Under the pieces are notes generated by a model. It was not told the origin of the DNA and made no database searches. It saw only the letters and a program-made list of their open reading frames with translations. From the IMG/VR virus record IMGVR_UViG_2718217785_000001: DNA of 40,734 nt, one strand, 5' to 3'. Shown piece after piece: positions 4,827 through 40,734 of this stretch. The DNA comes from a virus. Taxonomy: Duplodnaviria; Heunggongvirae; Uroviricota; Caudoviricetes. The position numbers and the translations under genes were made by a program. The first letter of the stretch is position 1; the number at the start of each line of letters is the position of its first letter.

Positions 4827-4862
4827 CGTCCACCTCCTTACGCTTTTCGCGCATGTTCTGCA

Positions 4863-4997
4863 TCAGACAAAAATCAAACCGACGTTCGCTTTGGCCCAGA
4901 CCTGCATCGCCCGGTCGTACCCGCCGGACTGTTCAAGGTGCAAAGCCTCCCGCACAGTCCGGTAATAAAGCGGACTGTCCCGGTATTTAAATGACAT
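4863..4997 (-). CDS. Possible 44 aa small ORF (MSFKYRDSPLYYRTVREALHLEQSGGYDRAMQVWAKANVGLIFV), unknown function
   Basis: ATG-initiated ORF in otherwise noncoding gap, found by manual translation; below the ORF-track length cutoff. Confidence 0.25.
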   Translation of the reverse strand: MSFKYRDSPLYYRTVREALHLEQSGGYDRAMQVWAKANVGLIFV

Positions 4998-5011
4998 AGG
5001 GTTTTTATTCC

Positions 5012-5038
5012 CAAATAAAAAACCCCGCGATGCAGGGT
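5012..5038 (-). terminator. Intrinsic terminator downstream of the TIR-like gene
   Basis: Minus-strand hairpin CCCTGC-ATC-GCGGGG followed by TTTTTTATTT. Confidence 0.5.
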
Positions 5039-5060
5039 TGTAATCAACAATAAGGGGTAA

Positions 5061-5822: not shown

Positions 5823-5886
5823 AAGTATTGTTCCTTTAATTTACTCGAATTCAGCATGTCGCCATAGCTCGATAAGGTGAGTTATA

Positions 5887-7950: not shown

Positions 7951-8006
7951 AAAATAACCTTGTGTGATATATGGTTATGTAGGCGTAAATAAACAAGGAG
8001 ACGGCG

Positions 8007-8276
8007 GTGTTTAGCTTTGGTATCGGAATACTTTCATTGATAGGTATTATTGCTTTCCCCATTCTTTATATTTTAGGGAGAATAGTTCGGGCTGGTGGCG
8101 CATGGCTCGAACGTGAAGAAGGTCCTAAGGATCGTGTTCTTCCCAAAATTATAATTTTTGCGCTTATTGGGTTCTTTCTTGGGTGTTTGGCTCAGCCTGT
8201 ATGGGACAGCATTTCGGCATGTAGAGACTATGGCAATCCAATAGGGAAATGTCTTTTTAAATTCAATGAATTTTAA
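8007..8276 (+). CDS. Low-GC moron encoding small membrane protein (2 TM), GTG start
   Basis: 89 aa, GTG start with RBS AAGGAG at 7995-8000, opposite strand to replication genes, AT-rich, hydrophobic segments. Confidence 0.5.
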   Translation: MFSFGIGILSLIGIIAFPILYILGRIVRAGGAWLEREEGPKDRVLPKIIIFALIGFFLGCLAQPVWDSISACRDYGNPIGKCLFKFNEF

Positions 8277-8343
8277 TTTTTAGTATTGCGGTAGGCTGGT
8301 TTGGATAACTATTTTCTTAAGCCAGCCTTTGTTATAAGAAATA

Positions 8344-8982
8344 TTAAGCATCTACCCCTTCGTCAGAAGGGAGGCCGATCATTTCGTTGAGAGTTTCGCG
8401 TCGTATAGCTGGCGGAAGCGGAGCAGATGGTGCATCGGCTGGCAGAAGTTCTTTAGCTTCAGGCCACTCTTCCAGCAGGCGCTTAACTGTGCGCACTTTA
8501 CTGAGTGCAGCGCTGACATTCTGTCGAATGTCTGACTCATCGCTCTGTATCTGCTCATAAAGTGCATCAAACCCGTAAAACTCTGTAACTAGAGGGTCAT
8601 TTGCCAGAAGGGTAAATTCCCCCGGCGCGATTTTGTGAATATGGTCTGGTGACCCTGATTCATATCCTCGATAGTTACCGTTGAAATAGACGGTAACCCG
8701 AGAACCTGCCAGATTCAGACACATGTAACACTCTTTCCTGATAATATTATTGGCGGTTTTTAATGCTTCGGGGAATTTTGATACCAGTGTTTCTATTTTT
8801 TTTATAATTTTTAATATTTCAGCTTCTTTCTCTACGCCCCCGATAGCTGCAAGCCGAACACGTTCGGCCCATTCAACACGAGCAGCTCGTAGTGCTGATT
8901 TACGTTTGGGGATACCCGCTTTCTCAAGTGCGTTATTGATGATTTGAGTTTTAAGGTGATTAGTTAATACGGGCTGTGACAT
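8344..8982 (-). CDS. Hypothetical phage protein (replication module); ORF could start 15 nt upstream at 8997
   Basis: ORF with RBS GAGGGAAAG ahead of internal ATG (MSQPVL); no family recognised. Confidence 0.55.
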   Translation of the reverse strand: MSQPVLTNHLKTQIINNALEKAGIPKRKSALRAARVEWAERVRLAAIGGVEKEAEILKIIKKIETLVSKFPEALKTANNIIRKECYMCLNLAGSRVTVYFNGNYRGYESGSPDHIHKIAPGEFTLLANDPLVTEFYGFDALYEQIQSDESDIRQNVSAALSKVRTVKRLLEEWPEAKELLPADAPSAPLPPAIRRETLNEMIGLPSDEGVDA

Positions 8983-9034
8983 TATTCTTTCCCTCATGAG
9001 ATACCCCCAGCACGTAGCTGGGGGATGAATATTT

Positions 9035-9583
9035 TTAAATTAGTGCTTCAGCATCAGCACCTTCGCTGATATCGTCGAAATCGTCAGCGCTTGCCACTCC
9101 GCCGCCAGCGAATGCATCGCCGTCTCGCAGGAACTGGACTCCGCCGAGTGAGGCATTAATGCGTTTACCGAAATTATTGTCCTGTGCCCAGATATCGATA
9201 ACGGCGTTTACATAGCACCCTGCATAGGGACGTCCGTCAGCCTGAATAAGTGGCGAACGATCGCGATCAAGAACAGCTGGGCGCGCTTTGTTAGCAGCAT
9301 TCAGGAAGAAATTACCGGGGAAGCCTTCATACTCTGCTTTTTCATCACCATCATGCAGGCACAGATTGAGTTTTTTCTCCAGCTGGTTATAAATGGGCTC
9401 CCACTTCTCTCCCCATTTTTCCTTCGCTACCTGCTTCATAGCTTTACGGATTTCTTCCAGTTGTGGGTGTTTGGGTGACATTAAAAATACTGCGGAGAAA
9501 CGTGGATCGCCTTCGCCGTTTACAGTTTTAGCTTCAAACAGAGACGGGAAGGCCAGACGAACATTGTTCAGCTTCAGTTTCAT
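9035..9583 (-). CDS. DUF2815-like phage protein (putative ssDNA-binding)
   Basis: 182 aa, N-terminal MKLKLNNVRLAFP and acidic C-terminal tail typical of DUF2815 proteins that accompany Pol A in this module type. Confidence 0.65.
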   Translation of the reverse strand: MKLKLNNVRLAFPSLFEAKTVNGEGDPRFSAVFLMSPKHPQLEEIRKAMKQVAKEKWGEKWEPIYNQLEKKLNLCLHDGDEKAEYEGFPGNFFLNAANKARPAVLDRDRSPLIQADGRPYAGCYVNAVIDIWAQDNNFGKRINASLGGVQFLRDGDAFAGGGVASADDFDDISEGADAEALI

Positions 9584-9598
9584 GGGTATTTCCTTAAA

Positions 9599-10900
9599 TC
9601 AGATGAGGTCTGCGGTTAGCGTATCGTCGGATACGTCGTCGAAATCATTTATAGGGTTGATATTGAGTGCGGGGCGTGGGTCTGACTCGGGAACGACGGT
9701 GGGTTTACCATCAGCTCGTGTTATCAGTGCCTCGACTTTTGACCAACGGCGCGGACTGGCCTTTTTGATAAGTTTTTCGGCTTTTGTGGGGCTAATAAGT
9801 TTAAAGTCGAATACTTCTTCAGTTTTGTACCTGAACTGGTCCTTCAGAAGTGCGCGAGCTGCCTCTTCATCACTCCAGGCCCGGTTACCTTGTTTTCCTG
9901 TTACCAGTTTAAACCCCGGTACCGGATGTCCGGCATTGAGTTCATTGTGAACCCGGTCTCGTACTGCCTTTAGCCAGGATTCAATAAAGTCGGCCTGGCT
10001 ATAGATCTCCGCAAGCTGCTCAATGGTTAACAGAGGTACACGTGCGCTGGCATTGGTGATTATTTCGCTGACAGGCTTTGTCAGATCTTCAAAATCGCTG
10101 GCCGCTGTTTGTAAATGCTGCATTTTCTGGGCAGTGCAAATAGCTTTTGCTTTACAGAAGCGGCACTGTTTTTCTCCAGGTATGAAGTTTTCCAGCGGTA
10201 GTGTCTCAATGCCTTCGCATTCAGCAATATTGAGAACAAGGATCGCACTGGTTGCGGCCTCCTGTGCCCGTTCACCGAAAGACTGAAGTTCCTGTACGGT
10301 TAACGACCATTCTGAAACGTGGTTGAGCCTTGGCTGGTGAATAAATAATCTTACAGTCTCAAAGTCATACAGCATGCTGAATTGTTCGAGTGCACCCAGG
10401 GCATACAGTTGTAGTTGCTCATTTTGTTCTGCATCAATGCGGACGCCTTTGCCATATTTCAGGTCGTGGATTTGTAATTCGTTACCAGCGATGATTATGC
10501 CGTCGGCAGTTCCGAAAGATTCTTCCACACCCGTTATATGTGAGAAATCAACACGTTGTTCAACCAATAGTTCATTATTCTGTGCAAGAGTCCAGACCGT
10601 ATCAACATACCGGCCAACGGCTTCGACCATTTCATCATCCACCTGTGGGCCAGATGTATCATCAGGATTTTCGCGAAGGGGGTATGAGCCGAGAAACATA
10701 GAAACATTGCATCCGGCGTAGTGTTCCGGGTGGCTTTGCCTGTTTCGTAGAACTTTTTCAGCAAGCGCGTGCGCTGCAGTGCCCTCGATTGCAAAAGTTG
10801 TTTCTTTATCCGGTTGTGTGGCCTCCAGCGCCAGACTTCCTGGGCAGCGCATCCATCGATGCGCTGATGATGGAGAAAGTTGTGCGTGAACGTCTGGCAT
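9599..10900 (-). CDS. DUF2800 / Cas4-like PD-(D/E)xK nuclease with Fe-S Cys cluster
   Basis: 433 aa; N-terminal Cys (RWMRCPGS), D-x-K motif [10 protein letters not shown]-terminal C-x2-C-x5-C ([13 protein letters not shown]). Confidence 0.75.
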
Positions 10901-10902
10901 GA

Positions 10903-11805
10903 TTAACCCTCCAGTGCTTTTTCAGCCAGGGTGATTACTTCAGCGAGATTTTCATCCGTTACTTCACCAAGTTTCCTGGCTCCCTGTTTTTCCAGAATTG
11001 CAATAGCTTCTGCCCGGTAGCCCCCTTTTGCTAACTGGAGGATCAACCCTTCAGCTTGTTTGCGTAGTGCCGCGAAATCAATTGTATGGTCATCTTTGGC
11101 GTCATGATTCTGGCTGGAATTTGCTGCGTCTCTGCGTGCAAATTCTTCCTGCAGCTGAAGGTACTCAACACGGTTGATCTCGATATGGCCTTTTTTAAGC
11201 ATCTCGTTCAACTTGCGTAAGGTGTGGAGTTCACTGGCTGCTGTGCCGGATACATTTTTGACGTAAAACGGCCCCGTGCGTTCTCCATCTTTGTCACTGG
11301 CCTTTTTCGGCTTAACTTCATCACGCCCATCTGCAGGTGCATCAAGTAGCTGCTCGGCAAAAGCGCGTCGCTCGCCGATGGTTGGCAGGTCGTCCCAGAA
11401 CTTAAGAATGTTACGGGACAGGTCCAGGAGAGCAGGTTTAAGCAGCGCCCTGGCTCGTTTGACGCCCTGCAATGCGCTGTCGAGAGCATCAATCTGAACT
11501 ACTCGTTTATCGCCTTCAGCATCACGGTAGGCAACAGCACGTTGCAGCATATCTTCTGTGATAGGGGTGGCTACCGGGTAGAAACCAGCCAGTGCGATAA
11601 CGTCGCTGAACTCCAGATCATCCAGTGTCATTGCCGCTGACATATTTTCAGTTTCAGTTGCTGTATCCCGACATTCCTGCACTCGTGAAATTGTGTCAGG
11701 ATGCATAACAATACCTGATGCCATTGTGCGGATAAGACGTTCAAGCAGCGCATTATGTTGTGCCAGAAGTTGATTATTAAGTTCTAGACTGGTTTCTAAA
11801 CTCAT
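10903..11805 (-). CDS. Hypothetical phage protein
   Basis: 300 aa ORF translationally coupled to neighbours in the leftward early operon. Confidence 0.55.
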
Positions 11806-11984
11806 ACTGTGGTCCTCGCTACAAGGAGAATGAAAGTGATGATCAGACCGAGCGCAGTGGCAACGGCCAGACCGGTCATCAAATCGAAGTTTTTACGGCG
11901 ATAACGGAGAACATCGCGCCCCGTCAGTCGATGGAGGTATTCAGGTTTCATCGGTTGTATTCCTTTTTTCATATCGGGGAGCAC
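11802..11984 (-). CDS. Small membrane protein (1 TM)
   Basis: 60 aa, C-terminal hydrophobic helix, start overlaps downstream gene. Confidence 0.4.
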   Translation of the reverse strand: MLPDMKKGIQPMKPEYLHRLTGRDVLRYRRKNFDLMTGLAVATALGLIITFILLVARTTV

Positions 11985-12078
11985 GCTGTTGCGAGTGTGC
12001 TTTCAGACATAAAAAAGCCCGTCACGTGAGGCGGGCAAAGACTACACACAGCAATTACATGGAGGATTCAGAGGATTG

Positions 12079-12288
12079 TTATGGGTGAAGGACGACGGTA
12101 TCCATTCGGTTAAAACAAGTATTGGTCGCAGAACCTGTATGTTTGTTAACTAGAGTCAGGCTAACGTTATGCTGGTCGCGGTCAGCTTTTTGGGTAACCT
12201 CCATTATCCGTTTTCCACTGAATTCAATTTTGTCGCCGATAGCCAGGTCATTAACCAGTTTATATTTAGGCATCTTGTGATTCCTCAT
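12079..12288 (-). CDS. Hypothetical small protein
   Basis: 69 aa ORF first in leftward early operon. Confidence 0.4.
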   Translation of the reverse strand: MRNHKMPKYKLVNDLAIGDKIEFSGKRIMEVTQKADRDQHNVSLTLVNKHTGSATNTCFNRMDTVVLHP

Positions 12289-12544
12289 TCAGTTCACTTT
12301 GGTGGTTCGGCGGCTTCGACTTGTATTAATTAGACAGTGCTTCGCCGCACCCCAAAGGGAACTTACTGACCCGTATTGCCGACATCCTGTCCCGCCACGG
12401 TCCCGACGCATGGTTTAGAGTCGCGCCGTTCGACTTGTGGTTTAAATATCTGTGTATAGATATCTTAACTTCACGCATATAGTTAAGACCTCTAAACTCA
12501 CAAAGTCAAGTGCTGCGGTTAAGAAAAGTGAACTTTTTCGGATA

Positions 12545-12574
12545 GGTAAAGAAAAGCCCGCTTAGGAAGCGGGC
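12545..12574 (-). terminator. Intrinsic terminator downstream of repressor gene
   Basis: Perfect 8 bp stem GCCCGCTT / AAGCGGGC with 3 nt loop, followed on minus strand by TTTTCTTT. Confidence 0.55.
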
Positions 12575-12598
12575 ATGTGGTATAGAGTGAATTTACGC

Positions 12599-13291
12599 TC
12601 AGAGCAGAACGGAGTACCAAAATACTTGGCCTATAATCCTGATTTTATTAGCCTCTTGATTAAAATACTCTTCGTCTGCGTATTCATCCCTATTGAAAGA
12701 GCGTATCCGGAGTCCGCTTGGGAGACGGTACAATAGTTTGACACGAAGTAATCCGTCTTGGTCTATAGCGTACATTTGACCATCTTTTACACCTGTTTTT
12801 GATGTATCTATGCCGACGACAGCGCCATCCGGTAATACCGGTTCCATGCTGTTGCCGTGGATGCTGACACAAGCCGCACAATTTACGTCAACACCTGCTT
12901 TGCGCAACGTTGAACGGGCGAATCTTAACTTACATCCCATTCGATCTATATCAACATAAGTACCATTACCGGCAGACAGTTCAATTTCCTGATAGAACGG
13001 TATTTCCACTTCATCATCCTCTAATGGTGTTGATGAGTCCCATACAGAAAACCCCCCTTCAACTTGTGCATTAGAATGTATTTCTTTGGTATCGCTTGTT
13101 TTGCCTGAAAGTAGCCACTCTGGAGAAACGTTCAATGCTTCGGCCAGATTTATAAGATTTTTCCCGTTAGGTGTGGTGTTTCCGGATTCCCATTGTGAAA
13201 TCGTGGCTTTAGTTAGACCAATACGTTTAGCAAGCGCATCCTGCGTTAGGTGGACATTGCGACGAGCCTCGCGAATACGATCATTAATCAT
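12599..13291 (-). CDS. cI: CI-like phage repressor (N-terminal XRE HTH, C-terminal S24 LexA-like peptidase)
   Basis: HTH LTQDALAKRIGLTKATISQWESG; S24 region with catalytic Ser context GNSMEP and Lys context LRVKLL. Confidence 0.85.
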   Translation of the reverse strand: MINDRIREARRNVHLTQDALAKRIGLTKATISQWESGNTTPNGKNLINLAEALNVSPEWLLSGKTSDTKEIHSNAQVEGGFSVWDSSTPLEDDEVEIPFYQEIELSAGNGTYVDIDRMGCKLRFARSTLRKAGVDVNCAACVSIHGNSMEPVLPDGAVVGIDTSKTGVKDGQMYAIDQDGLLRVKLLYRLPSGLRIRSFNRDEYADEEYFNQEANKIRIIGQVFWYSVLL

Positions 13292-16474: not shown

Positions 16475-16897
16475 ATGCGTAATATTCAACAGGTTTTAGA
16501 GCGCTGGGGGGGCTGGGCAGCGAGTGAAGGTGGTAGCGTCTACTTTCCTCCTGTTGCAGCCGGGTTTAAGAATCTGCTACCCGCGACGCAGTCTGGAAGG
16601 CTGAAATGCAGTGACAATGACGGTCTTATCATCAACTCCGCTATGAGCTGCCTGAAGAAAAAAGATCCGTATCTGTGCACGCTCCTTGAGTGGCATTACG
16701 TCCAGGCCATGCCCGTGCGGGCGATGGGTGAGAAGCTCGGCGTATCTCACACCCACGTTCTGAAGAGGCTTCAGGCGGCAGAGGGATTTATTGACGGTTG
16801 CTTAGCCATGCTGGATGTGGTGCTCGAAATGGATCAGTCGGTTCAGTCAAAGCCTCAGGCTATCAGGACTTTGCGTAGGAGCTGCTCGGCGGCATAA
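16475..16897 (+). CDS. Q: Late-gene antiterminator Q (DLP12 QuuD-like family)
   Basis: N-terminal VLERWGGWAA...AAGFK and Cys-containing core resemble recalled QuuD-type Q proteins; sits upstream of lysis genes. Confidence 0.75.
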   Translation: MRNIQQVLERWGGWAASEGGSVYFPPVAAGFKNLLPATQSGRLKCSDNDGLIINSAMSCLKKKDPYLCTLLEWHYVQAMPVRAMGEKLGVSHTHVLKRLQAAEGFIDGCLAMLDVVLEMDQSVQSKPQAIRTLRRSCSAA

Positions 16898-29384: not shown

Positions 29385-29533
29385 CGGCTGAATACCTCAC
29401 TGATCGCTTCTTTGACTGCGCCAGTTACTGGCGCATTAATCCCTTCGAATTGCTGAATATGCCGATCAGTGAAATTCCCTTGCTGGTCAGTCAGGCAAAC
29501 AGGATAGAGCAGGAGAAACGCACACATGGCTGA
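29351..29533 (+). CDS. Tail assembly chaperone -1 frameshift extension (GT-like fusion with 29115..29372)
   Basis: Overlapping -1 frame ORF entered at TTTTTTC (29366-29372); no independent RBS. Confidence 0.55.
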   Translation: MACGWFFPPGLTAEYLTDRFFDCASYWRINPFELLNMPISEIPLLVSQANRIEQEKRTHG

Positions 29534-31358
29534 ATTTGAGCTTAAGGCGTTGATCACCGGTGTCGACAGGCTTTCTCCGGCGCTGTCGAAAATGCAAAAG
29601 AAAATCCGGGGATTTAAACGCCAGGCGGAAGAAGCGTCACAGGGTGGGCTGGCGCTTGGTGGCGGACTGGCAGCGGGTCTGACGCTTTCCCTGAAATCTT
29701 ATGCCGATCAGGAAAACGCCGCCACCGGGCTGAAAGTCGCCATGATGGATGCGAACGGCGAGGTCGGAAAGAGCTTTCAGGACATCAATAAACTGGCTAT
29801 TGGCCTGGGTAACCAGCTACCCGGTACAACGGCTGATTTTCAGAACATGATGCAGATGCTGGTGCGTCAGGGGATCCCGGCAGAAAACATTCTTGGCGGT
29901 GTGGGTAAAGCGACGGCTTATCTTGCGGTACAACTGAAAAAAACACCGGAAGCGGCTGCTGAGTTTGCCGCAAAGATGCAGGATGCTACCGGAACGGCGT
30001 CAGAAGACATGATGGGGCTGTTCGACACTATCCAGAAGGCGTTTTATCTGGGCGTTGACGATACCAACATGTTGTCCTTCTTCACTAAAACCAGCTCTGT
30101 TCTGAAGATGGTGAACAAGGACGGTCTTCAGGCTGCACAGAGCCTTGCCCCCATCAGCGTCATGATGGATCAGATGGGGATGAACGGGGAGTCGGCAGGT
30201 AACGCCCTGCGAAAAGTTATCCAGTCCGGATTAAGCGTTAAGAAAATCAGGGACGTCAATAAAATCATGGCCCGCCAGAAACTCGGGGTACAGCTCGATT
30301 TTACTGACGGCAAAGGGAGTTTTGGCGGTCTTGATAACATGTTCAGGCAACTGGCAAAGCTGCGAAAACTGACCGACGTTAAACGAACTGGTGTACTTAA
30401 GGCAATATTTGGTGATGATGCCGAAACCCTTCAGGTGGTCAATGCGCTGATCGATAAAGGAAAGGATGGCTACGATCAGATCCAGCAGAAGATGAATAAA
30501 CAGGCCAGCCTGAATAAACGTGTTCAGGCACAGCTTGGTACGCTGTCCAACCTGTGGGAGGCAATGACAGGGACCGCAACTAACGGCCTTGCGGCTATTG
30601 GCGGCGCATTTTCTGGTGACGCTAAAAATATCACGCAATGGCTGGGGGAGTTGGGGGAAAAATTCACGAAGTTTGCGGATGAAAATCCCCGGGTTATTCG
30701 CGGCGTCGTCGGGCTTGCTGCCGGTCTTGCGATTCTGAAACTGGGATTGATGGGCGTGGGCAGTGCCATCAGTATTGTCAGCAGGATCATGTCGATGACG
30801 CCGATTGGCATGATTGCGACGGCGATTGCTCTGGCTGCGGGATTAATTATCACTAACTGGGATGTTGTCGGACCTTATTTCAAGAAGCTCTGGGAAACCA
30901 TTGGTCCTTATTTTGAGGCTGGCTGGGAACTCCTTAAGAAAGTTTTTGCCTGGTCGCCGCTGGGGATGGTGATCAATAACTGGGGGCCGGTTGTTAAGTG
31001 GTTTCAGGATATGTGGGACAAGCTGAAGCCAATTATTGAGTGGTTTACCGACAGTTCCGGTGACACGGTCGATGCCATTAACTCTGCGCAGTGGGGCGCG
31101 GGTGCTTATGATGCTTATGGGACGGGAATACCGGCACGGGGATACACTCCTTATCCGGCGGTGGATCCGGCTCAGGCAAACAACGCCTCCGATGCCACAG
31201 GCCCGAATCCCTTCATGATTAATAAAGCTACCGCGCCAAAAGTTGATGGTGAGATCAAGGTATCATTTATAAATATGCCACCAGGTATGCGGGTTACGGA
31301 AACACGCTCCAGTGGCATTGATATAAATCACGATGTTGGCTATACCCGATTTTGGTAG
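29526..31358 (+). CDS. Tail tape measure protein
   Basis: 610 aa, helical, Gly/Ala-rich TM-like segments, downstream of chaperone. Confidence 0.8.
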   Translation: MAEFELKALITGVDRLSPALSKMQKKIRGFKRQAEEASQGGLALGGGLAAGLTLSLKSYADQENAATGLKVAMMDANGEVGKSFQDINKLAIGLGNQLPGTTADFQNMMQMLVRQGIPAENILGGVGKATAYLAVQLKKTPEAAAEFAAKMQDATGTASEDMMGLFDTIQKAFYLGVDDTNMLSFFTKTSSVLKMVNKDGLQAAQSLAPISVMMDQMGMNGESAGNALRKVIQSGLSVKKIRDVNKIMARQKLGVQLDFTDGKGSFGGLDNMFRQLAKLRKLTDVKRTGVLKAIFGDDAETLQVVNALIDKGKDGYDQIQQKMNKQASLNKRVQAQLGTLSNLWEAMTGTATNGLAAIGGAFSGDAKNITQWLGELGEKFTKFADENPRVIRGVVGLAAGLAILKLGLMGVGSAISIVSRIMSMTPIGMIATAIALAAGLIITNWDVVGPYFKKLWETIGPYFEAGWELLKKVFAWSPLGMVINNWGPVVKWFQDMWDKLKPIIEWFTDSSGDTVDAINSAQWGAGAYDAYGTGIPARGYTPYPAVDPAQANNASDATGPNPFMINKATAPKVDGEIKVSFINMPPGMRVTETRSSGIDINHDVGYTRFW

Positions 31359-31386
31359 CCAGGATTCCCCTCACATGTATTGCTGG

Positions 31387-31414
31387 TTGTAAGTCATAAA
31401 TAGAGTGATAGAAT
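31387..31414 (+). promoter_or_regulatory. Putative sigma70 promoter for tail-module moron (TTGTAA-N16-TAGAAT)
   Basis: -35 at 31387-31392 and -10 at 31409-31414 read from sequence. Confidence 0.35.
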
Positions 31415-31449
31415 TAATGCACATTTAGAAAAATGTTAATAGGCGAAAA

Positions 31450-31980
31450 ATGAAAGGCTATATCACAGCAAGTGTAATTCTTGGAGCAGCGGCTATTTTT
31501 TCATCTCTCATAATCTCTGGCAACATCTCCTTTAAAGATGAACATATTATTCAGTTATCTGGAGGAGCCATAAAACTTGGTGATGTTTATAAAGAAAATA
31601 AATTGATAAGTGCAAAGATTATTTTTCCAGATAATCAGGGTGAACAGATTCTTGTTGTCGACGGCAATCCTGAAAACTTTAAGGAGGATTTTCAGGAGAA
31701 ATTAAATAAAGTAATAAAAACTTTAAATGCGTCAAAGAAAAAAGATGAAGAGAAAGTTAGTCTGGATAATTTAAGTGTTATTGAAGAGTCTAAACTAGAG
31801 CTCGTTTCTGCGGTGCGTTACTCTGCTCAGTATGTTCCTATGTTTACTCTGACGCTGGACAAAAAAGAAATTACCATGCCTAAAAATACGGTAATATTTC
31901 CATTTGCCAGCGATGAAACAGCTAAGTATTTAAATGAACAACAGCAAAAGTATAAAGATTCGTTGTTTCTGACTCGCTAA
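31450..31980 (+). CDS. Low-GC moron encoding secreted or membrane-anchored protein, unknown function
   Basis: 176 aa, N-terminal hydrophobic signal/anchor, Lys/Glu-rich, AT-rich, own promoter-like element and terminator, inserted between tape measure and baseplate genes. Confidence 0.6.
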   Translation: MKGYITASVILGAAAIFSSLIISGNISFKDEHIIQLSGGAIKLGDVYKENKLISAKIIFPDNQGEQILVVDGNPENFKEDFQEKLNKVIKTLNASKKKDEEKVSLDNLSVIEESKLELVSAVRYSAQYVPMFTLTLDKKEITMPKNTVIFPFASDETAKYLNEQQQKYKDSLFLTR

Positions 31981-31998
31981 TTAATAAAATTCATTACA

Positions 31999-32030
31999 AG
32001 GCCACCTTCTAATAGGTGGCTTTTTTATTT
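31999..32030 (+). terminator. Intrinsic terminator after tail moron
   Basis: GGCCACCT-TCTAAT-AGGTGGC hairpin followed by TTTTTTATTTT. Confidence 0.65.
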
Positions 32031-32041
32031 TCGGAGTGTAT

Positions 32042-33370
32042 ATGACGTGGAAAGACAGGCTTCAGGATGCGTCATTTCGAGGTGTGCCGTTTAAGGTTGA
32101 AGAAGAAAGTGCGGGAACCGGTCGCCGTGTGGAAACACATGAATACCCGAACCGCGACAAGCCCTATACCGAAGATCTGGGAAAAGTCACTTTCCGCCCG
32201 TCCATCACAGCTTATGTGGTGGGAGATGACTGCTTTGACCAGCGCGATCGCCTGATTGAAGCGCTGAATAAACCCGGTCCCGGCACGCTTGTCCACCCGA
32301 CATATGGTGAGCTGAAAGTCTGTGTTGACGGGGAAGTTCGGGTCAGCACATCGAAAAGTGAAGGGCGTATTGTCCGCTTTGACCTGAAGTTTGTCGAAGC
32401 AGGAGAACTCTCTTACCCCACATCAGGTGCGGCGACGGCGCAGACGCTGATGTCATCCTGTTCTGCACTGGATGACTGCATCAGTGACAGCTTCAGCGGT
32501 TTCAGTATCGATGGCGTGGCAGATTTTGTGCAGAACGATGTCGTCGGTAATGCCAGCACAATGCTTGGGTATGTTTCTGATGCGATGAAAGTGGTGGATT
32601 CTGCCGTATCGGATGCCGCCAGGCTGTTGCAGGGGGATATCTCGGTACTTCTGCCGCCGCCATCGTCAGGCAAAAATTTCGTTGAGCAGGTGCAGAAAAT
32701 GTGGCGTACCGGGAAACGCCTTTATGGTAACGCCAGCGACCTGGTCACCATGATCAAAACGCTTTCCGGTGTCAGCCTCGGCAGCGATCTGCAACCGCGC
32801 GGCGTCTGGAAAACGGACAGTAAAACCACCGCCACGGCGACGCAGCAGCGTAACGTGGTTGCCAGCACCCTTCGTACGACCGCAATCAGCGAAGCGGCGT
32901 ATGCCGTCACCCGATTGCCTGCGCCAACAACTTCCGCGGTGATGCAGAATTCCGCAGTGGGGCAGGCAACAACACCCGCGCAGAGTACTGGCTGGCCTTC
33001 CGTCACGCATCCGGCACTGAACAATGCACCGGCGGTGAAAAACACGGTTGACCTGCCGACGTGGGAAGAACTGACTGACATTCGCGACACACTGAATACG
33101 GCAATTGATAAGGAGTTGTCCCGTACAACCAGCGATGCGCTGTTTCTGGCGCTGCGCCGGGTGAAAGCAGATCTGAATGCGGATATCAATACGCGCCTTG
33201 AACAGTCTGCACGGATCATTCAGCGCACACCGGATGAGGTTTTACCCGCGCTGGTGCTGGCGGCGACCTGGTTTGATAACGCGGCGCGTGACGCGGACAT
33301 TATCCGGCGTAATGCCATTACGCATCCCGGCTTTGTGCCGGTGATCCCTCTGAAGGTGCCAGTGCAATGA
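32042..33370 (+). CDS. DNA circularization protein (Mu N-like); ORF could begin at GTG 32036
   Basis: RBS GGAG then ATG; N-terminal domain in expected position after tape measure. Confidence 0.7.
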   Translation: MTWKDRLQDASFRGVPFKVEEESAGTGRRVETHEYPNRDKPYTEDLGKVTFRPSITAYVVGDDCFDQRDRLIEALNKPGPGTLVHPTYGELKVCVDGEVRVSTSKSEGRIVRFDLKFVEAGELSYPTSGAATAQTLMSSCSALDDCISDSFSGFSIDGVADFVQNDVVGNASTMLGYVSDAMKVVDSAVSDAARLLQGDISVLLPPPSSGKNFVEQVQKMWRTGKRLYGNASDLVTMIKTLSGVSLGSDLQPRGVWKTDSKTTATATQQRNVVASTLRTTAISEAAYAVTRLPAPTTSAVMQNSAVGQATTPAQSTGWPSVTHPALNNAPAVKNTVDLPTWEELTDIRDTLNTAIDKELSRTTSDALFLALRRVKADLNADINTRLEQSARIIQRTPDEVLPALVLAATWFDNAARDADIIRRNAITHPGFVPVIPLKVPVQ

Positions 33371-37042: not shown

Positions 37043-37705
37043 ATGCATCGTATAGACACGAAAACCGCGCAGAAGGATAAGTTCGGCGCGGGTAAGAACG
37101 GTTTTACCCGTGGTAACCCCCAGACCGGCACGCCTGCCACCGATCTGGATGATGACTACTTTGACATGTTGCAGGAGGAGCTTTGCAGCGTTGTGGAGGC
37201 ATCCGGTGCCAGCCTGGAGAAGGGGCGGCATGACCAGCTGCTTACCGCGCTTCGTGCGCTGCTGTTAAGCCGCAAGAATCCGTTTGGCGATATCAAATCG
37301 GATGGCACGGTGAAAACAGCTCTCGAAAACCTTGGTTTGGGAGAAGCGGCGAAACGAAATGTGGGAACAGGGGAAAATCAGATACCGGACATGGCCTCTT
37401 TTGCCAGTGGTGATGGATGGATGAAATTACCCAACGGGAAAATCCTGCAATATGGTCGTGGGCGTGTGTCTCCTACGCTTGCGAGTCAGACACTACGGGT
37501 AGAATTTAATATACCTTTCCCTAAAAAAGCTGATATTGCCTTGCTTTCACATTCTGGTGATGGTGGTTCAACTGCCGGGAGTGGTCGTGGTTTTATGATG
37601 ACAACTGAAGAGCCAGGGTTAACAGGGTTTTATTCTGCCTTTAGAACAACCTCGACAAGTCCAACTGTTACCATGAATTACTGTTGGTGGGCTGTTGGCG
37701 AGTAA
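37043..37705 (+). CDS. Tail fibre protein: constant N-terminus (res 1-104) fused to variable C-terminus inside invertible segment
   Basis: 220 aa; N-terminus [21 protein letters not shown] typical of e14/Mu-type fibres; crossover site within LGLGEAAK coding region. Confidence 0.75.
37320..37350. other. Left crossover site of invertible segment (hix/gix-like)
   Basis: TTGGTTTGGGAGAAGCGGC at 37332-37350 is the exact reverse complement of 38917-38935; imperfect palindromic half-sites AAACC/GGTTT. Confidence 0.65.
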
Positions 37706-37725
37706 TTTTATTCAGGGTGATTTAT

Positions 37726-38169
37726 ATGAACAAATATGTTTATAGTGCCAGACATAATGCTTTTTTCCCTGTGGATATGATTGATAAATATAAATCAGAG
37801 GGATGGGATTTATCAGATGTGAAAGAAGTGAATCAAAATATTGTCAGTGAGTTTATGGCTGAACCGCCACAAGGAAAAGTCCGTATTGCCGGAGATGATG
37901 CGCTGCCTGCGTGGGCTGATATTCCTCCACCCACGCATGAAGAGCTTATTGAAATTACTGAATCAGAAAGACAGCTACTAATTAACCAGGCCAACGAATA
38001 CATGAACAGTAAACAATGGCCCGGTAAAGCCGCTATTGGTCGTCTGAAAGGTGACGAACTGGCGCAATATAATTTGTGGCTGGATTATCTGGACGCACTG
38101 GAACTGGTTGATACTTCCGGTGCGCCAGATATTGAATGGCCTACGCCTCCGGCTGTTCAGGCCAGATGA
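37726..38169 (+). CDS. Tail fibre assembly protein (Tfa), active orientation
   Basis: Conserved Tfa core (LPAWADIPPPTHEE), directly after fibre gene. Confidence 0.7.
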   Translation: MNKYVYSARHNAFFPVDMIDKYKSEGWDLSDVKEVNQNIVSEFMAEPPQGKVRIAGDDALPAWADIPPPTHEELIEITESERQLLINQANEYMNSKQWPGKAAIGRLKGDELAQYNLWLDYLDALELVDTSGAPDIEWPTPPAVQAR

Positions 38170-38557
38170 CATCAGGGGCCGTTGACGTATCGACGGCTTT
38201 CACCGCTTTTTTATGCGCCATCCACTCAGACAATTTCGCTTTATCCTCGTCACTTATATCGCCGAGCATTAATTCAACCCGCCAGTCGGCGGTTACTTCG
38301 TCAATCTGCTGTAGCCGTTGCTGGCGATATTGTTCTGCCGCCGCTATTTGCTCTTCATGCGTTGGAGGCGGCGCATCGACCCAAGCGGGCAGTCCAGTGC
38401 TATCTGCACCAAGCATTTTACCTTCAGGCCAGGCAATACCAGCAAATTGGTTGTAGAGGTTAACACTGATTTCAATAGCTGATTCAGGAATAAACCTGCT
38501 TTCAGGTTCAATATAAAATCCGTTATCAACGGCGTCATAAAAGTATCTTGTTTTCAT
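38141..38557 (-). CDS. Tail fibre assembly protein (Tfa), alternative cassette
   Basis: Same Tfa core (LPAWVDAPPPTHEEQ) on the opposite strand, convergent with the first. Confidence 0.7.
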   Translation of the reverse strand: MKTRYFYDAVDNGFYIEPESRFIPESAIEISVNLYNQFAGIAWPEGKMLGADSTGLPAWVDAPPPTHEEQIAAAEQYRQQRLQQIDEVTADWRVELMLGDISDEDKAKLSEWMAHKKAVKAVDTSTAPDVIWPEQPEA

Positions 38558-38558
38558 G

Positions 38559-38935
38559 TTAATAACCTATTGCGAATAAACAACCGGCAGCTGAAGCACC
38601 CGCCCATGAAGTCCCATTAGTTGTTCTTAAAACACGAACTTTGACTGTCGTTCTGGTAGAGCCACCAATATCGAAGCCCCACGTTGTGCCGGCCGATCCA
38701 TTCCACGAGCTAGCAGAAGCACCTGAGTCAATCGCAGTGGCATGAAACAGAGCGTTAGGAAATGCCATAGGTAATGTCACGGTTGCTACTCCAGTCGAAT
38801 CGGAAAGAAATCCAGAGACCCACTGGAAAATGATATTTTGTTCAACCCCACCAATTAAAGCCGGGATCAATATTCTCCCGGTATTACCCGTTACCCCTAC
38901 AGCAGCGCCAAGTTTTGCCGCTTCTCCCAAACCAA
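38559..38935 (-). CDS. Alternative tail fibre C-terminal cassette (silent in present orientation)
   Basis: Minus-strand ORF sharing GLGEAAK junction with the + strand fibre, lacks its own constant N-terminus. Confidence 0.65.
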
Positions 38936-38947
38936 CGTTTATGAAAA
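38917..38947. other. Right crossover site of invertible segment (TTCTCCCAAACCAACGTTTATGAAAA)
   Basis: 26 bp hix-like imperfect palindrome; inverted copy of left site. Confidence 0.65.
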
Positions 38948-39001
38948 TGCAGAAATAACGAGCAAATGGCATCATTCCTGCTTTTGTCAGGGAGATCTAC
39001 C

Positions 39002-39316
39002 ATGCTTATTGGCTATGTACGTGTGTCAACAAATGACCAGAACACCGATCTGCAACGTAATGCACTGAACTGCGCGGGATGTGAGCGGATTTTTGAGGAT
39101 ACAATCAGTGGCACTAAGTCCGACAGACCAGGGCTGAAAAAACTGCTCAGGACATTATCGGCAGGTGACACTCTGGTTGTCTGGAAGCTGGATCGGCTGG
39201 GGCGCAGTATGCGGCATCTTGTCGTGCTGGTGGAGGAGTTGCGCGAACAAGGTGTTAACTTTAGTAGTTATGTTATTACAGGTGGGGGATTTCTCCCCCT
39301 TATGCAGATTTTCTAG
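39002..39316 (+). pseudogene. pin: Pin/Gin/Hin-family serine DNA invertase, truncated after about residue 85
   Basis: N-terminus MLIGYVRVSTNDQNTDLQRNAL...TLVVWKLDRLGRS matches Pin-type resolvase domain; homology stops near 39262 and ORF ends in unrelated low-GC sequence. Confidence 0.7.
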
Positions 39317-39320
39317 TTAA

Positions 39321-40166
39321 CTATTGGCGAAGTGGCCATATTTTTCTGTTTTTTAAAAAACTATCTCCAACTATATAACTGCAACAATGTTCACTAAGGC
39401 CATAAAAACTAATTATTCCATATTTATGAGAAGCTATATCAGACAGTTCTGCTAATACTGTGGCAAGCCAACGAGCGATGCTAAGAGAATAGAATCTTCC
39501 CCATTTTTGAACAATGGTATTTTGTCCAGTACGGATGGAGGCTGATATAAGGTCTTGCATCATGTTGGTACTTTCATTCATATACATGATCGTTGTATAC
39601 GGCGAAAGAGTGGCATTGATAAACCTAGCATTTTCTTCAACACGTCTTTGTTCAACTGTATAATAATAATGTTTTTCAAGGATACTCTCGGCTACTTCTC
39701 CCCACCATTTATTAATAGGTTCATTATTGGTTAAATTGGGGCTGCTTAATGAAGAGAAATTTGCGTAACGTCCCCGTCGGGCATCAGCAAAGGAATCTAA
39801 ACATTCAAGTATTTTGTAGGTGATTTTATGTGTAGGACGTGAATATCTCAGAGATAGTTGCATTTTTTTAGAAATACTATCAACCTCGTTGGTTAATTCA
39901 ATGAGCTTATGTCCAAATTTTCTTACAATATTCTCGTCAGGCATTTTTCCTTTATGTTCAATGGCATAGTGTGCAACAAGTATTAGTTTAGCAAGTCTCT
40001 CAAAACCTACAGAAAGCCCAAAAAATGCAGTGTAATACTCACCTATTTTGTCTGCATAATTGGCTTTACCTATGGCTGTTGCCCCAGAACCAATGAGCTG
40101 TGTAACTAAAGATGCTTCTCGGCCCAGAGCGTGCCATGCTGGAATATCCCAGGGATTTTTATTCAC
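39321..40166 (-). CDS. Low-GC cargo gene, unknown function, at the invertase-distal hotspot; candidate defence gene
   Basis: 281 aa ORF, AT-rich, occupies the position where e14 carries mcrA; no recognised motifs. Confidence 0.6.
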   Translation of the reverse strand: MNKNPWDIPAWHALGREASLVTQLIGSGATAIGKANYADKIGEYYTAFFGLSVGFERLAKLILVAHYAIEHKGKMPDENIVRKFGHKLIELTNEVDSISKKMQLSLRYSRPTHKITYKILECLDSFADARRGRYANFSSLSSPNLTNNEPINKWWGEVAESILEKHYYYTVEQRRVEENARFINATLSPYTTIMYMNESTNMMQDLISASIRTGQNTIVQKWGRFYSLSIARWLATVLAELSDIASHKYGIISFYGLSEHCCSYIVGDSFLKNRKIWPLRQ

Positions 40167-40293
40167 TTTATTATTTTCCTTTGCTCATAAATTTAAATTG
40201 TTTGAGTATCTCATAAAATATAAGGAGGTGGTTAAGGTTGTTGATCGCATATAATAGCTATTGAAAGTCAAGAACTCGGTTTTATGTTCTACC

Positions 40294-40334
40294 ACTAATT
40301 AATATATTGTGAATCTTACAATATATTAATTAGT
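40294..40334. repeat. Perfect 17 bp inverted repeat with 7 bp spacer (ACTAATTAATATATTGT ... ACAATATATTAATTAGT)
   Basis: Read directly from sequence in the gap between the two cargo ORFs. Confidence 0.65.
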
Positions 40335-40467
40335 ATGATCAAACCAGCCATCAACTGATTCCTTGTATCTTTCAGAGTCTCCAGAATAAAAGCCTTAACG
40401 AATTCCTTATTTGTGAGTGCCTTACAAAAAGCCCATTGTTGCAGGGAACGAGTATAAAACTCGTCAG

Positions 40468-40734
40468 CTACTGGAGAAGGCTACCTGAACTTCGATCTAT
40501 TCCTGCATCCATATAGTTGATGGTCTTCTGGAGCTCTTCGATTAGGGCAACAGCTTTTGCTCGAGAAATGCATATTAGGTGATCCGGAAATTCTTGTAAG
40601 GGCCAGTTTGGTATACAGGCCATGTTATCAGTGAAGGATGCAGACAAGTAAACTTCATTGGTAACCAGAGAATAGCTTACCTCAAAATTGGTGAGCTCCG
40701 GCAAACTGCTAACGTTTGACTCTTTTCTGCGCAT
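40468..40734 (-). CDS. Hypothetical cargo protein; start at window edge, may extend beyond
   Basis: 88 aa minus-strand ORF ending at 40468, low GC, upstream of the 281 aa cargo gene on the same strand. Confidence 0.4.
   Translation of the reverse strand: MRRKESNVSSLPELTNFEVSYSLVTNEVYLSASFTDNMACIPNWPLQEFPDHLICISRAKAVALIEELQKTINYMDAGIDRSSGSLLQ

What the first reader, a model, noticed from the sequence alone, without database searches (positions are those of the whole stretch)
31387..32030. Self-contained moron cassette inside the tail operon
A low-GC 176 aa ORF with an N-terminal signal/anchor sequence sits between tape measure and baseplate genes with a promoter-like TTGTAA-N16-TAGAAT upstream and a strong intrinsic terminator downstream. 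Independently transcribed cargo inside the tail operon is a common home for lysogenic conversion or exclusion factors.
Basis: partly seen in the sequence, partly recalled or inferred. Interest (0 to 1): 0.55.

Follow-up and report, generated by a model that had tools for sequence, protein, structure and literature searches.

The report
Membrane-protein moron in prophage tail operon
A small, AT-rich, probably self-transcribed gene for a membrane-anchored periplasmic protein sits in a swappable cargo slot in the tail operon of an E. coli prophage; it is a textbook moron whose function, most likely blocking other phages, is untested.

Summary
The window is 100% identical to an SfV-like prophage (HK97-type head, Mu-type contractile tail) of E. 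coli C11. ORF 31450-31980 (176 aa, GC 0.34, flanks 0.50-0.56) lies between the tape measure gene and the Mu gpN-like DNA-circularization gene. A TG-extended sigma-70-like promoter lies upstream and a -15.6 kcal/mol terminator downstream.

Comparative data support the moron reading:
- SfV and about half of related E. coli prophages have only 24-60 bp here.
- Others carry one of at least five unrelated cargo genes, four of them envelope proteins.
- The cassette is 99.1-100% conserved on backbones that differ by 2-3%.
- Orthologues (41-59% identity, still GC3 ~0.3, dN/dS ~0.1) fill the same slot in Leclercia and Edwardsiella prophages.
- In Lelliottia amnigena the cassette survives alone next to icd, with its upstream 107 nt invariant.

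Two corrections. The terminator is a feature of the slot, since empty slots have one too. The promoter match alone is weak evidence.

The protein has one N-terminal transmembrane helix and an alpha/beta domain (AlphaFold pLDDT 91) with no PDB relative. Its only fold match is a lipoprotein of a lytic Pseudomonas phage. Best guess, untested: superinfection exclusion in the envelope. This is a new member of a known kind.

The parts
29526..31358 (+). Tail tape measure protein gene (left flank of the cargo slot). Homology between cargo variants ends a few codons before its stop, after the conserved ...HDVGYT motif.
   Evidence: PF10145, E 1.3e-26; annotated as tape measure protein in the identical C11 record; junction comparison.
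31359..32041 (+). The cargo slot as filled here: a 683-bp AT-rich insert relative to SfV (45 bp) and to empty-slot E. coli prophages (24-60 bp).
   Evidence: GC 0.34 against flanks of 0.50-0.54. No flanking direct or inverted repeats.
31387..31414 (+). Sigma-70-type promoter-like element TTGTAA-N16-(TG)n-TAGAAT; the inferred transcription start is near 31421.
   Evidence: 1.1% of shuffles of the spacer give a TG-extended site. Invariant in 74 alleles. Activity not shown.
31441..31446 (+). Weak Shine-Dalgarno-like AGGCGA, 4 nt upstream of the ATG.
   Evidence: Read directly from the sequence; inference.
31450..31980 (+). Cargo gene, 176 aa, family PHROG 5485 (function unknown).
   Evidence: dN/dS 0.08-0.10.
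31453..31518 (+). Codons 2-23: the single N-terminal transmembrane helix, a probable uncleaved signal anchor with the N-terminus in the cytoplasm.
   Evidence: Kyte-Doolittle 19-residue maximum 2.1 at residues 5-23. AlphaFold helix at residues 2-23. Positions S8, G12, S18, L20, I22, S23 are conserved across the close family. Topology is inferred.
31537..31977 (+). Codons 30-176: predicted periplasmic alpha/beta domain (strands 32-36, 39-44, 46-58, 68-72; helix 74-93; strands 114-126, 132-143; helix 149-171). The family motif NIIxxxxGxVxLGxVYxE lies at its start.
   Evidence: AlphaFold2 on 61 sequences, pLDDT 91.1; alignment A2.
31998..32033 (+). Intrinsic terminator: 10-bp stem, 6-nt loop, then TTTTTTATTTT. 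The T-run and everything 3' of it are shared with all slot variants.
32042..33370 (+). DNA-circularization (Mu gpN-like) protein gene (right flank of the slot); its ribosome-binding site CGGAGT lies directly after the terminator T-run.
   Evidence: PF07157, E 3.7e-34.
16475..16897 (+). Context: antiterminator Q family gene. Q-modified late transcription would be expected to read through the slot terminator during lytic growth.
   Evidence: Annotation of the identical C11 record; ORF verified in the window. Read-through is inferred from established lambdoid Q biology.

Best explanation
This is a moron: a horizontally exchanged, single-gene cargo cassette. It occupies a hyper-variable slot between the tape measure gene and the gpN-like DNA-circularization gene of SfV-like (HK97-head, Mu-tail) prophages of Enterobacterales.

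In the lysogen, host RNA polymerase with sigma-70 is inferred to start at the cassette's own TG-extended promoter (31387-31414). It would make a ~600-nt mRNA and stop at the slot terminator (31998-32033), so the baseplate genes stay silent. During lytic growth, Q-antiterminated late transcription reads through.

The product is a 176-aa bitopic inner-membrane protein: an uncleaved N-terminal anchor and a ~150-aa periplasmic alpha/beta domain from an uncharacterised family.

Most likely function: the membrane-tethered periplasmic domain acts in the envelope to exclude superinfecting phages. It would do this at a step after adsorption, namely passage of the tail tip or genome through the periplasm and inner membrane. 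This benefits both host and prophage.

Confidence by step:
- Moron or cargo cassette: ~0.9.
- Envelope (inner membrane/periplasm) protein: ~0.85.
- Own promoter active in lysogens: ~0.7.
- Phage exclusion as the function: ~0.4.

The number given below is for the whole chain, including the function.
For: Presence/absence and swapping.
- SfV has 45 bp here.
- The flanks occur in 1093 of 5426 complete E. coli genomes. In an even sample of 40 records, roughly half of those with both flanks have an empty slot.
- Counts by cargo: this cassette 171-175 genomes; 162-aa secreted protein 101; 164-aa secreted protein 84; transmembrane-anchored OB-fold protein (minus strand) 75; 225-aa lipoprotein 54; bPH_1 protein 28.
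- The cargos are unrelated to each other.
- All cargos have GC 0.32-0.42.

Separate history from the backbone.
- The cassette is 99.1-100% identical (median 99.6%) across 77 IMG/VR loci.
- The tape measure, DNA-circularization, gpP, tube and sheath genes have medians of 97.1-98.7%.

A real gene under selection.
- dN/dS is 0.08-0.10.
- 77 clusters were found in a profile search.

Same slot in other genera.
- Orthologues are 53-59% identical in Leclercia and other enteric contigs and 41% in Edwardsiella.
- The tail proteins are 63-88% identical in the same comparisons.

Independence from the phage.
- In Lelliottia amnigena a 770-bp fragment (tape measure 3' remnant + gene + terminator) sits alone ~180 bp downstream of icd, in at least 5 contigs and 2 alleles.
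- Between the alleles there are 0 differences in -107..-1 and 20 differences in -368..-108. The coding sequence has 5 synonymous and 3 nonsynonymous differences.

Promoter and terminator.

Envelope location.
- A single transmembrane segment and no Cys.
- A high-confidence model with a transmembrane helix plus a soluble domain.

Lean towards a phage-directed function.
- The only significant fold match is a lipoprotein of lytic Pseudomonas phage ventosus: Foldseek E 1.1e-6, TM-score 0.56/0.66.
- It carries a lipobox, and hhalign gives E 1.2e-4 with the family motif aligned.
- Four of the five alternative cargos also go to the envelope.
- Distant members (23% identity) ride on small integrative islands in Pseudomonas.
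- The first moron ever named, HK97 gene 15, lies next to the tape measure gene. It encodes an inner-membrane superinfection-exclusion protein whose specificity maps to the tail region of the incoming phage (PMC3594210).
Against: - No expression data of any kind.
- The promoter match is 9 of 12, and such sites are as frequent as in shuffled sequence over the 5-kb region. In orthologues promoter-like sites are found in only 4 of 6, at shifting positions.
- The exclusion function rests on analogy, location and cargo statistics only.
- The Lelliottia orphan shows benefit without the phage but does not say what the benefit is.
- Signal anchor versus cleaved signal peptide was not decided with a dedicated predictor; a possible ISG|N or AAA|I cleavage site exists.
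- The low divergence of the cassette could partly reflect strong selection rather than recent spread.
Confidence: 0.45

Rival explanations
1. Host-fitness or lysogenic-conversion factor unrelated to phages. The periplasmic domain would alter an envelope property such as stress tolerance, nutrient uptake, colicin or antibiotic entry, or host colonisation.
For: The orphan copy is retained under constraint in Lelliottia after the prophage was lost. It is the commonest cargo of the slot in E. coli from many hosts. Morons such as lambda lom are known to act this way (PMC3594210; bor likewise, from my own knowledge).
Against: A remote homologue is carried by a strictly lytic Pseudomonas phage, which has no lysogen to convert. 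No resemblance to any transporter, enzyme or virulence family.
Confidence: 0.2
2. Accessory protein of the phage's own lytic cycle, made from the late transcript. It might prevent released virions from injecting into already-infected cells or debris, or modulate the periplasm during lysis or assembly. The promoter-like site would then be incidental.
For: Same strand as, and embedded in, the Q-dependent late operon. The slot position has been kept across genera for long enough to saturate synonymous sites. A remote homologue occurs in a lytic phage among non-structural genes. The promoter match alone is not above chance.
Against: Absent from SfV and from about half of close relatives, and replaceable by unrelated genes, one of them on the opposite strand, which cannot be a late-operon product. 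The Lelliottia orphan has lost every late promoter yet keeps an intact ORF and an invariant upstream 107 nt.
Confidence: 0.15
3. Membrane-acting abortive-infection or toxin-like effector. It would be held inactive until another phage infects and would then permeabilise or depolarise the inner membrane.
For: Small prophage-encoded single-pass membrane proteins are common effectors of abortive systems (general knowledge). The same prophage carries another candidate defence gene, the TIR protein matching PDC-S35.
Against: It is a single gene with no sensor partner in the slot. Most of the protein is a folded periplasmic domain rather than a pore-forming helix bundle. No PADLOC match.
Confidence: 0.1
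4. Structural or assembly component of the tail, for example a tape-measure-associated or baseplate-hub protein, or a non-functional ORF created by AT-rich filler.
For: Position between the tape measure and hub-associated genes, and conserved synteny in several genera.
Against: Missing from SfV, a described serotype-converting phage (PMC3851460). The slot is empty in about half of relatives. The N-terminal membrane anchor is incompatible with cytoplasmic tail assembly. It persists without any tail genes in Lelliottia. Purifying selection and a confident fold exclude a spurious ORF.
Confidence: 0.03

Closest known systems
HK97 gene 15 moron (Juhala et al. 2000; Cumby et al. 2012; reviewed in PMC3594210)
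   Same: A single small gene inserted in the tail operon directly beside the tape measure gene. It has deviant GC and its own promoter and terminator. The product is an inner-membrane protein. It benefits the lysogen (gp15 blocks genome entry, with specificity mapping to the incoming phage's tail region). Non-prophage chromosomal homologues exist: YebO for gp15, the Lelliottia orphan here.
   Different: No sequence relationship: no Pfam family, YebO included, matches at E<=1. gp15 is described as a small inner-membrane protein (PMC3594210), whereas this protein has a ~150-aa folded periplasmic domain. gp15 lies upstream of the tape measure gene in a siphovirus; this gene lies downstream of it in a contractile-tail phage. 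A phenotype has been shown for gp15 and none here.
P2 Z/fun hotspot and the other cargo hotspots of P2-like prophages (Rousset et al. 2022, PMC9122126; iLund4u preprint 10.1101/2024.10.15.618418)
   Same: A fixed position inside or next to the tail gene cluster of a temperate myovirus. Unrelated accessory genes replace one another there between otherwise near-identical phages.
   Different: A different phage lineage and a different slot. P2 hotspots mostly hold recognisable cytoplasmic defence systems. Here none of the six cargos matches PADLOC, and five of the six (this gene plus four of the five alternatives) are envelope proteins.
Membrane- or lipid-anchored superinfection-exclusion proteins of phages (T4 Imm and Sp, T5 Llp, phi80/N15 Cor, P22 SieA, Streptococcus TP-J34 Ltp; PMC10883804, PMC3952083)
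   Same: Small phage-encoded proteins tethered to a membrane and facing the periplasm or cell surface. They are carried by both temperate and lytic phages. Ltp and gp15 act on the tape-measure-dependent entry step.
   Different: No detectable homology to any of them. Function not tested here.
Lipoprotein CNR37_00111 (UniProt A0A2H4P829) of lytic Pseudomonas phage ventosus
   Same: The only significant structural match: Foldseek E 1.1e-6, probability 1.00, TM-score 0.56/0.66. The motif after the anchor aligns (IIhtrsavvnvGeV against NIIxxxxGxVxLGxVY; hhalign E 1.2e-4). It is also membrane-tethered.
   Different: 13-15% identity. It has a lipobox anchor instead of a transmembrane helix, is 144 aa, and lies in a non-structural region of a 97-kb virulent phage. 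Its function is also unknown.

Membership tests
Moron (sense of Juhala et al. 2000, as summarised in PMC3594210) | Extra DNA present in one phage and absent at the same position in close relatives. | tested here: met
   SfV has 45 bp; empty slots have 24-60 bp; the slot here is 683 bp. Roughly half of the related E. coli prophages sampled have an empty slot.
Moron (sense of Juhala et al. 2000, as summarised in PMC3594210) | Base composition differs from that of the surrounding genes. | tested here: met
   GC 0.34 against 0.50-0.56. GC3 is 0.29-0.38 in all orthologues, in hosts and phages of 0.51-0.60.
Moron (sense of Juhala et al. 2000, as summarised in PMC3594210) | Own promoter. | tested here: inconclusive
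   A 9/12 match with an extended -10 TG. 1.1% of shuffles reproduce it. Invariant in 74 alleles. The upstream 107 nt are invariant in the orphan locus. However, the site count equals the shuffle expectation and the site is not positionally conserved in orthologues.
Moron (sense of Juhala et al. 2000, as summarised in PMC3594210) | Own terminator. | tested here: met
   -15.6 kcal/mol hairpin plus T-run. Caveat: empty slots carry an equivalent terminator.
Moron (sense of Juhala et al. 2000, as summarised in PMC3594210) | Expressed from the repressed prophage. | not testable with these tools
   Needs transcript mapping in a lysogen. The indirect argument comes from the Lelliottia orphan.
PHROG 5485 (phage protein family of unknown function) | Full-length match to the family profile. 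| tested here: met
   E 3.8e-108, residues 1-176 on profile positions 1-176 of 176.
HK97 gp15 / YebO family | Sequence homology to gp15/YebO. | tested here: not met
   No Pfam family at E<=1 and no NCBIfam family. Length and architecture also differ.
Known anti-phage defence or exclusion protein families (PADLOC-DB v2, Pfam Imm/Cor/Sie-type families) | Profile match to a catalogued defence or exclusion protein. | tested here: not met
Superinfection-exclusion proteins (functional class) | Expression in a sensitive host reduces infection by other phages at or after adsorption. | not testable with these tools
   Requires plating and DNA-entry assays.
Structural tail proteins of SfV/Mu-type tails | Present in all phages with this tail module. 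| tested here: not met
   Absent from SfV and from empty-slot prophages.
Transposon- or IS-borne passenger gene | Terminal inverted repeats, target-site duplication or an adjacent transposase. | tested here: not met
   No flanking repeats and no transposase in the slot. The junctions coincide with conserved phage sequence, which points to recombinational swapping.

The most novel reading that the evidence does not exclude
The slot between the tape measure gene and the gpN-like gene of SfV-like prophages would be a dedicated 'envelope exclusion' hotspot. Its interchangeable cassettes are this protein, two secreted proteins, a lipoprotein and a membrane-anchored OB-fold protein. Each would block periplasmic or inner-membrane genome delivery by a different set of rival phages, defining exclusion groups among co-circulating prophages. 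The 176-aa protein would found a new structural class of periplasmic exclusion proteins shared by temperate enterobacterial phages, Pseudomonas integrative islands and, in lipoprotein form, lytic Pseudomonas phages. Bacteria could also domesticate it, as in the Lelliottia orphan next to icd.
Probability: 0.25. Interest if true: 0.6.

Novelty: new member of a known kind. Interest (0 to 1): 0.4.

Why it matters
Morons in tail operons are a well-known phenomenon, so the existence of this one is not surprising. The comparative picture is what makes it useful.

- It defines a cleanly delimited cargo slot present in about a fifth of complete E. coli genomes.
- The slot holds at least six unrelated one-gene cassettes. 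None is in current defence catalogues, and five of the six encode envelope proteins.
- That gives a compact, testable candidate list for entry-level phage exclusion, a class of defence that genomic screens centred on cytoplasmic systems tend to miss.
- The protein itself has a confident predicted fold with no solved relative.
- It also offers a natural experiment: an orphan copy kept after prophage loss, which argues that it pays its way for the host.

Tried and rejected
Searches and models that gave nothing usable
- A profile search of PDB sequences found nothing.
- The AFDB Foldseek library was unavailable.
- tblastn against 50,697 deposited phage genomes gave no match. The gene is therefore known only from prophages and uncultivated viral contigs.
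- The scan of one genome per species with A1 found only Edwardsiella anguillarum.
- A second homologous-protein search with the diverse alignment added only six distant members.
- A literature search for the protein accession found no paper.
- The SfIV paper's moron lies between Q and the lysis genes, not in this slot.

Hypotheses rejected
- Transposon-type insertion: no repeats at the junctions.
- An RNA element in the slot: no Rfam family anywhere in the window.
- The alternative cargos as diverged homologues of this protein: hhalign probabilities of 1.2% or less.

An error of my own
- In one search the DNA-circularization gene was translated from 32043 instead of 32042, giving a spurious 18% identity. 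One search corrected this to 63-72%.
Full report
**What the window is**

The 40,734-bp window is identical, with 0 mismatches, to E. coli strain C11 chromosome 3779633-3820366. It is also IMG/VR contig UViG_2718217713_000001. It holds a complete prophage between yfhL and yfhH.

- The left part carries an integrase and an early region with its own family-A DNA polymerase.
- Next come CI/Cro-type regulators, an antiterminator Q, and lysis genes.
- The head module is HK97-type: terminase, portal, protease, capsid.
- The tail is Mu-type and contractile: sheath, tube, assembly chaperone, tape measure, DNA-circularization protein (gpN-like), gpP, gp45, gp46, gp47, gp48, fibres.
- This is the architecture of Shigella phage SfV. 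The DNA flanking the finding matches SfV at 89%.

**Checking the observation**

- ORF 31450-31980 encodes 176 aa.
- The GC profile falls from 0.50-0.60 to 0.31-0.33 only across 31200-32000. The gene has GC 0.34.
- The protein has one hydrophobic segment, with a Kyte-Doolittle 19-residue mean of 2.1 at residues 5-23, and no cysteine.
- The neighbours are a tape measure protein (PF10145) and a DNA-circularization protein (PF07157).
- The promoter-like TTGTAA-N16-TAGAAT at 31387-31414, with TG at the extended -10 position, and the terminator at 31998-32023 plus T-run are both found by the scan.
- The terminator folds at -15.6 kcal/mol, z = -4.55.
- The promoter match is not by itself remarkable. 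The region has 5 such sites against 4.3 expected, and 14% of shuffles of the 91-nt spacer produce one. Only 1.1% produce one with the TG.

The promoter remains the weakest element.

**Is it an insertion?**

Yes.

- SfV has 45 bp between the tape measure and gpN-like genes. The window has 683 bp.
- DNA flanking the slot occurs in 1093 of 5426 complete E. coli genomes.
- An evenly spaced sample of 40 of these records contained this cassette, an empty slot (about half of those with both flanks), or other genes.
- I fetched examples of each and counted them with slot-plus-flank queries.

| Slot content | Genomes (of 5426) |
|---|---|
| This cassette | 171-175 |
| 162-aa protein with a signal peptide | 101 |
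| 164-aa protein with a signal peptide | 84 |
| 148-aa membrane-anchored OB-fold protein (PF12869), opposite strand | 75 |
| 225-aa lipoprotein | 54 |
| Cytoplasmic bPH_1 protein (PF08000) | 28 |

- Domain assignments are; the sequences are.
- These cargos are unrelated to the 176-aa protein and to each other. None matches PADLOC. All are AT-rich, with GC 0.32-0.42.
- On the left, homology between variants ends a few codons before the tape measure stop, after a conserved HDVGYT motif.
- On the right, homology resumes at the terminator T-run and the ribosome-binding site of the gpN-like gene.
- There are no repeats or duplications at the junctions. The cassettes are therefore most likely exchanged by recombination between the conserved flanks, not by transposition.

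The empty slots of SfV and of E. coli 23CRST007 also contain a hairpin plus T-run, at -16 kcal/mol. Every plus-strand cargo ends in a hairpin at the same place, though the stem sequences differ. A terminator between the tape measure and gpN-like genes is thus a standing feature of this phage group. I infer that late transcription, which depends on the Q antiterminator encoded at 16475-16897, reads through it.

**Separate evolutionary history**

- Across 77 IMG/VR loci the cassette is 99.1-100% identical to the window, median 99.6%.
- The tape measure, gpN-like, gpP, tube and sheath genes of the same loci have median identities of 97.1-98.7%.
- Within 74 full-length alleles, positions 31380-31444, which include both promoter hexamers, never vary. 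The coding region shows 14 synonymous and 10 nonsynonymous variable sites and one frameshift allele.
- One cassette allele has therefore spread over diverged backbones, or is under much stronger constraint than they are.

**Deeper relatives**

- Orthologues of 52-59% identity occur in the same slot in Leclercia adecarboxylata and L. pneumoniae prophages and in unassigned enteric contigs.
- A 41% orthologue fills the slot in Edwardsiella.
- In the Leclercia comparisons the tail proteins are 63-88% identical. One exception is a swapped tape measure allele. An initial 18% figure for the gpN-like protein was my frame error and was corrected.
- Synonymous sites between orthologues are saturated. 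Where they are not, dN/dS is 0.08-0.10.
- GC3 stays at 0.29-0.38 in every orthologue. The low GC is therefore a maintained trait of the family, not just a trace of recent transfer.
- A profile search of 1.84 billion representatives finds 77 clusters. Almost all are 165-195 aa with the same N-terminal hydrophobic segment.
- Members at ~23% identity in Pseudomonas lie on small integrative islands carrying a serine recombinase or integrase and a DUF5906 primase. They sit next to a resolvase/invertase gene, and their GC is again below that of the host.

**A natural experiment**

- In Lelliottia amnigena the gene sits alone about 180 bp downstream of icd's own terminator, with no phage genes nearby.
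- Homology to the Leclercia prophage covers only 770 bp: the last ~190 nt of the tape measure gene, the cargo gene and the terminator.
- The same arrangement occurs in at least five contigs with two alleles.
- Between the alleles, the 261 nt from -368 to -108, which include the tape measure remnant, differ at 19-20 positions.
- The 107 nt directly upstream of the start codon differ at none.
- The coding region differs at 8 positions, 5 synonymous and 3 nonsynonymous.
- The cassette has thus outlived its prophage, with both the reading frame and its immediate upstream region under constraint.
- This is the best available evidence that it is transcribed on its own and is useful to the cell without the phage. 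It remains indirect.

**The protein**

- There are no matches in Pfam, NCBIfam or PADLOC.
- It matches PHROG 5485, a family of unknown function, over its full length.
- AlphaFold2 on the 61-sequence alignment gives pLDDT 91.1. The model has a helix at residues 2-23, a short linker, and an alpha/beta domain with strands 32-36, 39-44, 46-58, 68-72, helix 74-93, strands 114-126, 132-143 and helix 149-171.
- The most conserved motif, NIIxxxxGxVxLGxVYxE, directly follows the anchor. Y124 and the PxFxLTL strand are also conserved.
- Several positions inside the hydrophobic helix are conserved (S8, G12, S18, L20, I22, S23). That is unusual for a cleaved signal peptide. I therefore infer an uncleaved signal anchor with the domain in the periplasm. 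No dedicated predictor was available.
- Foldseek against predicted viral structures gave one significant match, a lipoprotein of lytic Pseudomonas phage ventosus (E 1.1e-6, TM-score 0.56/0.66).
- I located that gene (CNR37_00111), confirmed its lipobox, and found that hhalign aligns it to the family over 124 columns, including the post-anchor motif (E 1.2e-4, probability 56%).
- The same periplasmic module thus seems to be tethered by a transmembrane helix in temperate enterobacterial phages and by a lipid in a virulent Pseudomonas phage.

**How it most likely works**

Shown by the data:
- It is an exchangeable, AT-rich, one-gene cassette in a cargo hotspot of the tail operon.
- It encodes a selected protein with one membrane anchor and a folded domain.
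- It is dispensable for SfV-type phages.
- It can persist without the phage.

Inferred:
- It is transcribed in lysogens from its own sigma-70 promoter and terminated at the slot terminator.
- The domain faces the periplasm.

Proposed, at about 0.4: it excludes superinfecting phages at a post-adsorption envelope step. The reasons are:
- its location and architecture parallel HK97 gp15, the founding moron, which is an inner-membrane exclusion protein encoded beside the tape measure gene (PMC3594210);
- five of the six cargos of this slot are envelope proteins;
- family members travel on prophages, integrative islands and a lytic phage, which fits a phage-against-phage role better than a virulence role.

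Rivals:
- A phage-unrelated envelope fitness factor (0.2).
- A lytic-cycle accessory protein (0.15). This is weakened by the orphan copy, the empty slots and the opposite-strand cargo.
- An abortive-infection membrane effector (0.1).
- A structural protein or a spurious ORF (0.03).

**Comparison with what is known, and verdict**

- By the defining features of a moron, presence/absence, composition and terminator are met. The promoter is inconclusive and prophage expression is untestable here.
- It is not a member of the gp15/YebO family or of any catalogued defence or exclusion family.
- The slot resembles the Z/fun hotspot of P2-like phages in kind (PMC9122126; 10.1101/2024.10.15.618418), but it lies in another lineage and has different, mostly envelope-directed cargo.
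- I found no paper describing this slot or this protein.
- I rate it a new member of a known kind.
Interest is moderate: nothing here is surprising in principle, but the slot gives a short, concrete list of candidate entry-level exclusion genes, and the protein has a confident fold with no solved relative.

Noticed in passing
window 5061-5822 (-): A 253-aa TIR-domain protein (PF10137, CAP12/Pycsar-effector TIR) in the early region, between the DNA polymerase gene and an ANR-type regulator pseudogene. It matches the PADLOC candidate single-gene defence system PDC-S35 over its full length (E 2e-108). This is a second, independent candidate defence cargo of the prophage.
   Followed up: partly
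window 3401-4400 (ORF 3535-4332, +): A second low-GC island (minimum 0.30) holds a 265-aa ORF. It is transcribed opposite to its early-region neighbours (helicase, VRR-NUC) and has no Pfam or PADLOC match. It looks like another moron.
   Followed up: partly
window 39201-40600 (ORF 39321-40166, -): A third low-GC island sits at the right end of the prophage, just before host yfhH. It holds a 281-aa ORF on the minus strand with no Pfam or PADLOC match. This is the position where SfV-type phages often carry conversion genes.
   Followed up: partly
window ~37700-39320: Two tail-fibre-assembly genes and two gp53-like fibre fragments face each other, next to a truncated recombinase (invertase) pseudogene (about 39002-39268). 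This looks like a decayed Gin/Cin-type invertible host-range segment, now frozen in one orientation.
   Followed up: no
window 2067-13140 (early region): The SfV-type structural module is joined to an early region encoding the phage's own family-A DNA polymerase, DUF2800, DUF2815, VRR-NUC, a DEAD-box helicase, an Nmad5 nucleotide-modification protein and a DUF5906 primase-like protein. This shows mosaicism relative to SfV. Annotations are from the identical C11 record.
   Followed up: no
L012 763-822; L002 (SfV) 3969-4013: Empty cargo slots still carry a strong hairpin plus T-run (-16 kcal/mol) between the tape measure and gpN-like genes. The tail operon of this phage group therefore has a built-in internal terminator. 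It could set the ratio of sheath, tube and tape measure transcripts to baseplate transcripts, or serve as the landing pad for cassette exchange.
   Followed up: partly
L003 10013-11808, L008 10012-11819: Leclercia SfV-like prophages have two extra genes (about 503-507 aa and 94 aa, no Pfam hits) between the gpN-like gene and gpP. These are absent from the window, which suggests a second variable position in the same tail operon.
   Followed up: no
L014 6634-8534; L018 6935-8531: In Pseudomonas integrative islands the distant family member lies next to a divergently oriented resolvase/invertase gene. In L014 it directly follows a 180-aa protein with a signal peptide. A possible two-gene secreted module or an invertible arrangement was not examined.
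   Followed up: no
window 31433-31453: A six-codon upstream mini-ORF (ATG TTA ATA GGC GAA AAA TGA) has a stop codon that overlaps the start codon of the cargo gene (AAAAATGA). It has no ribosome-binding site of its own and is probably chance in AT-rich sequence.
   Followed up: no
L007 7810-8581; L109-L112: The orphan copy of the cassette in Lelliottia amnigena lies immediately downstream of icd, the integration site used by e14-type prophages. This implies that an SfV-like prophage once sat there and was deleted down to 770 bp.
   Followed up: yes
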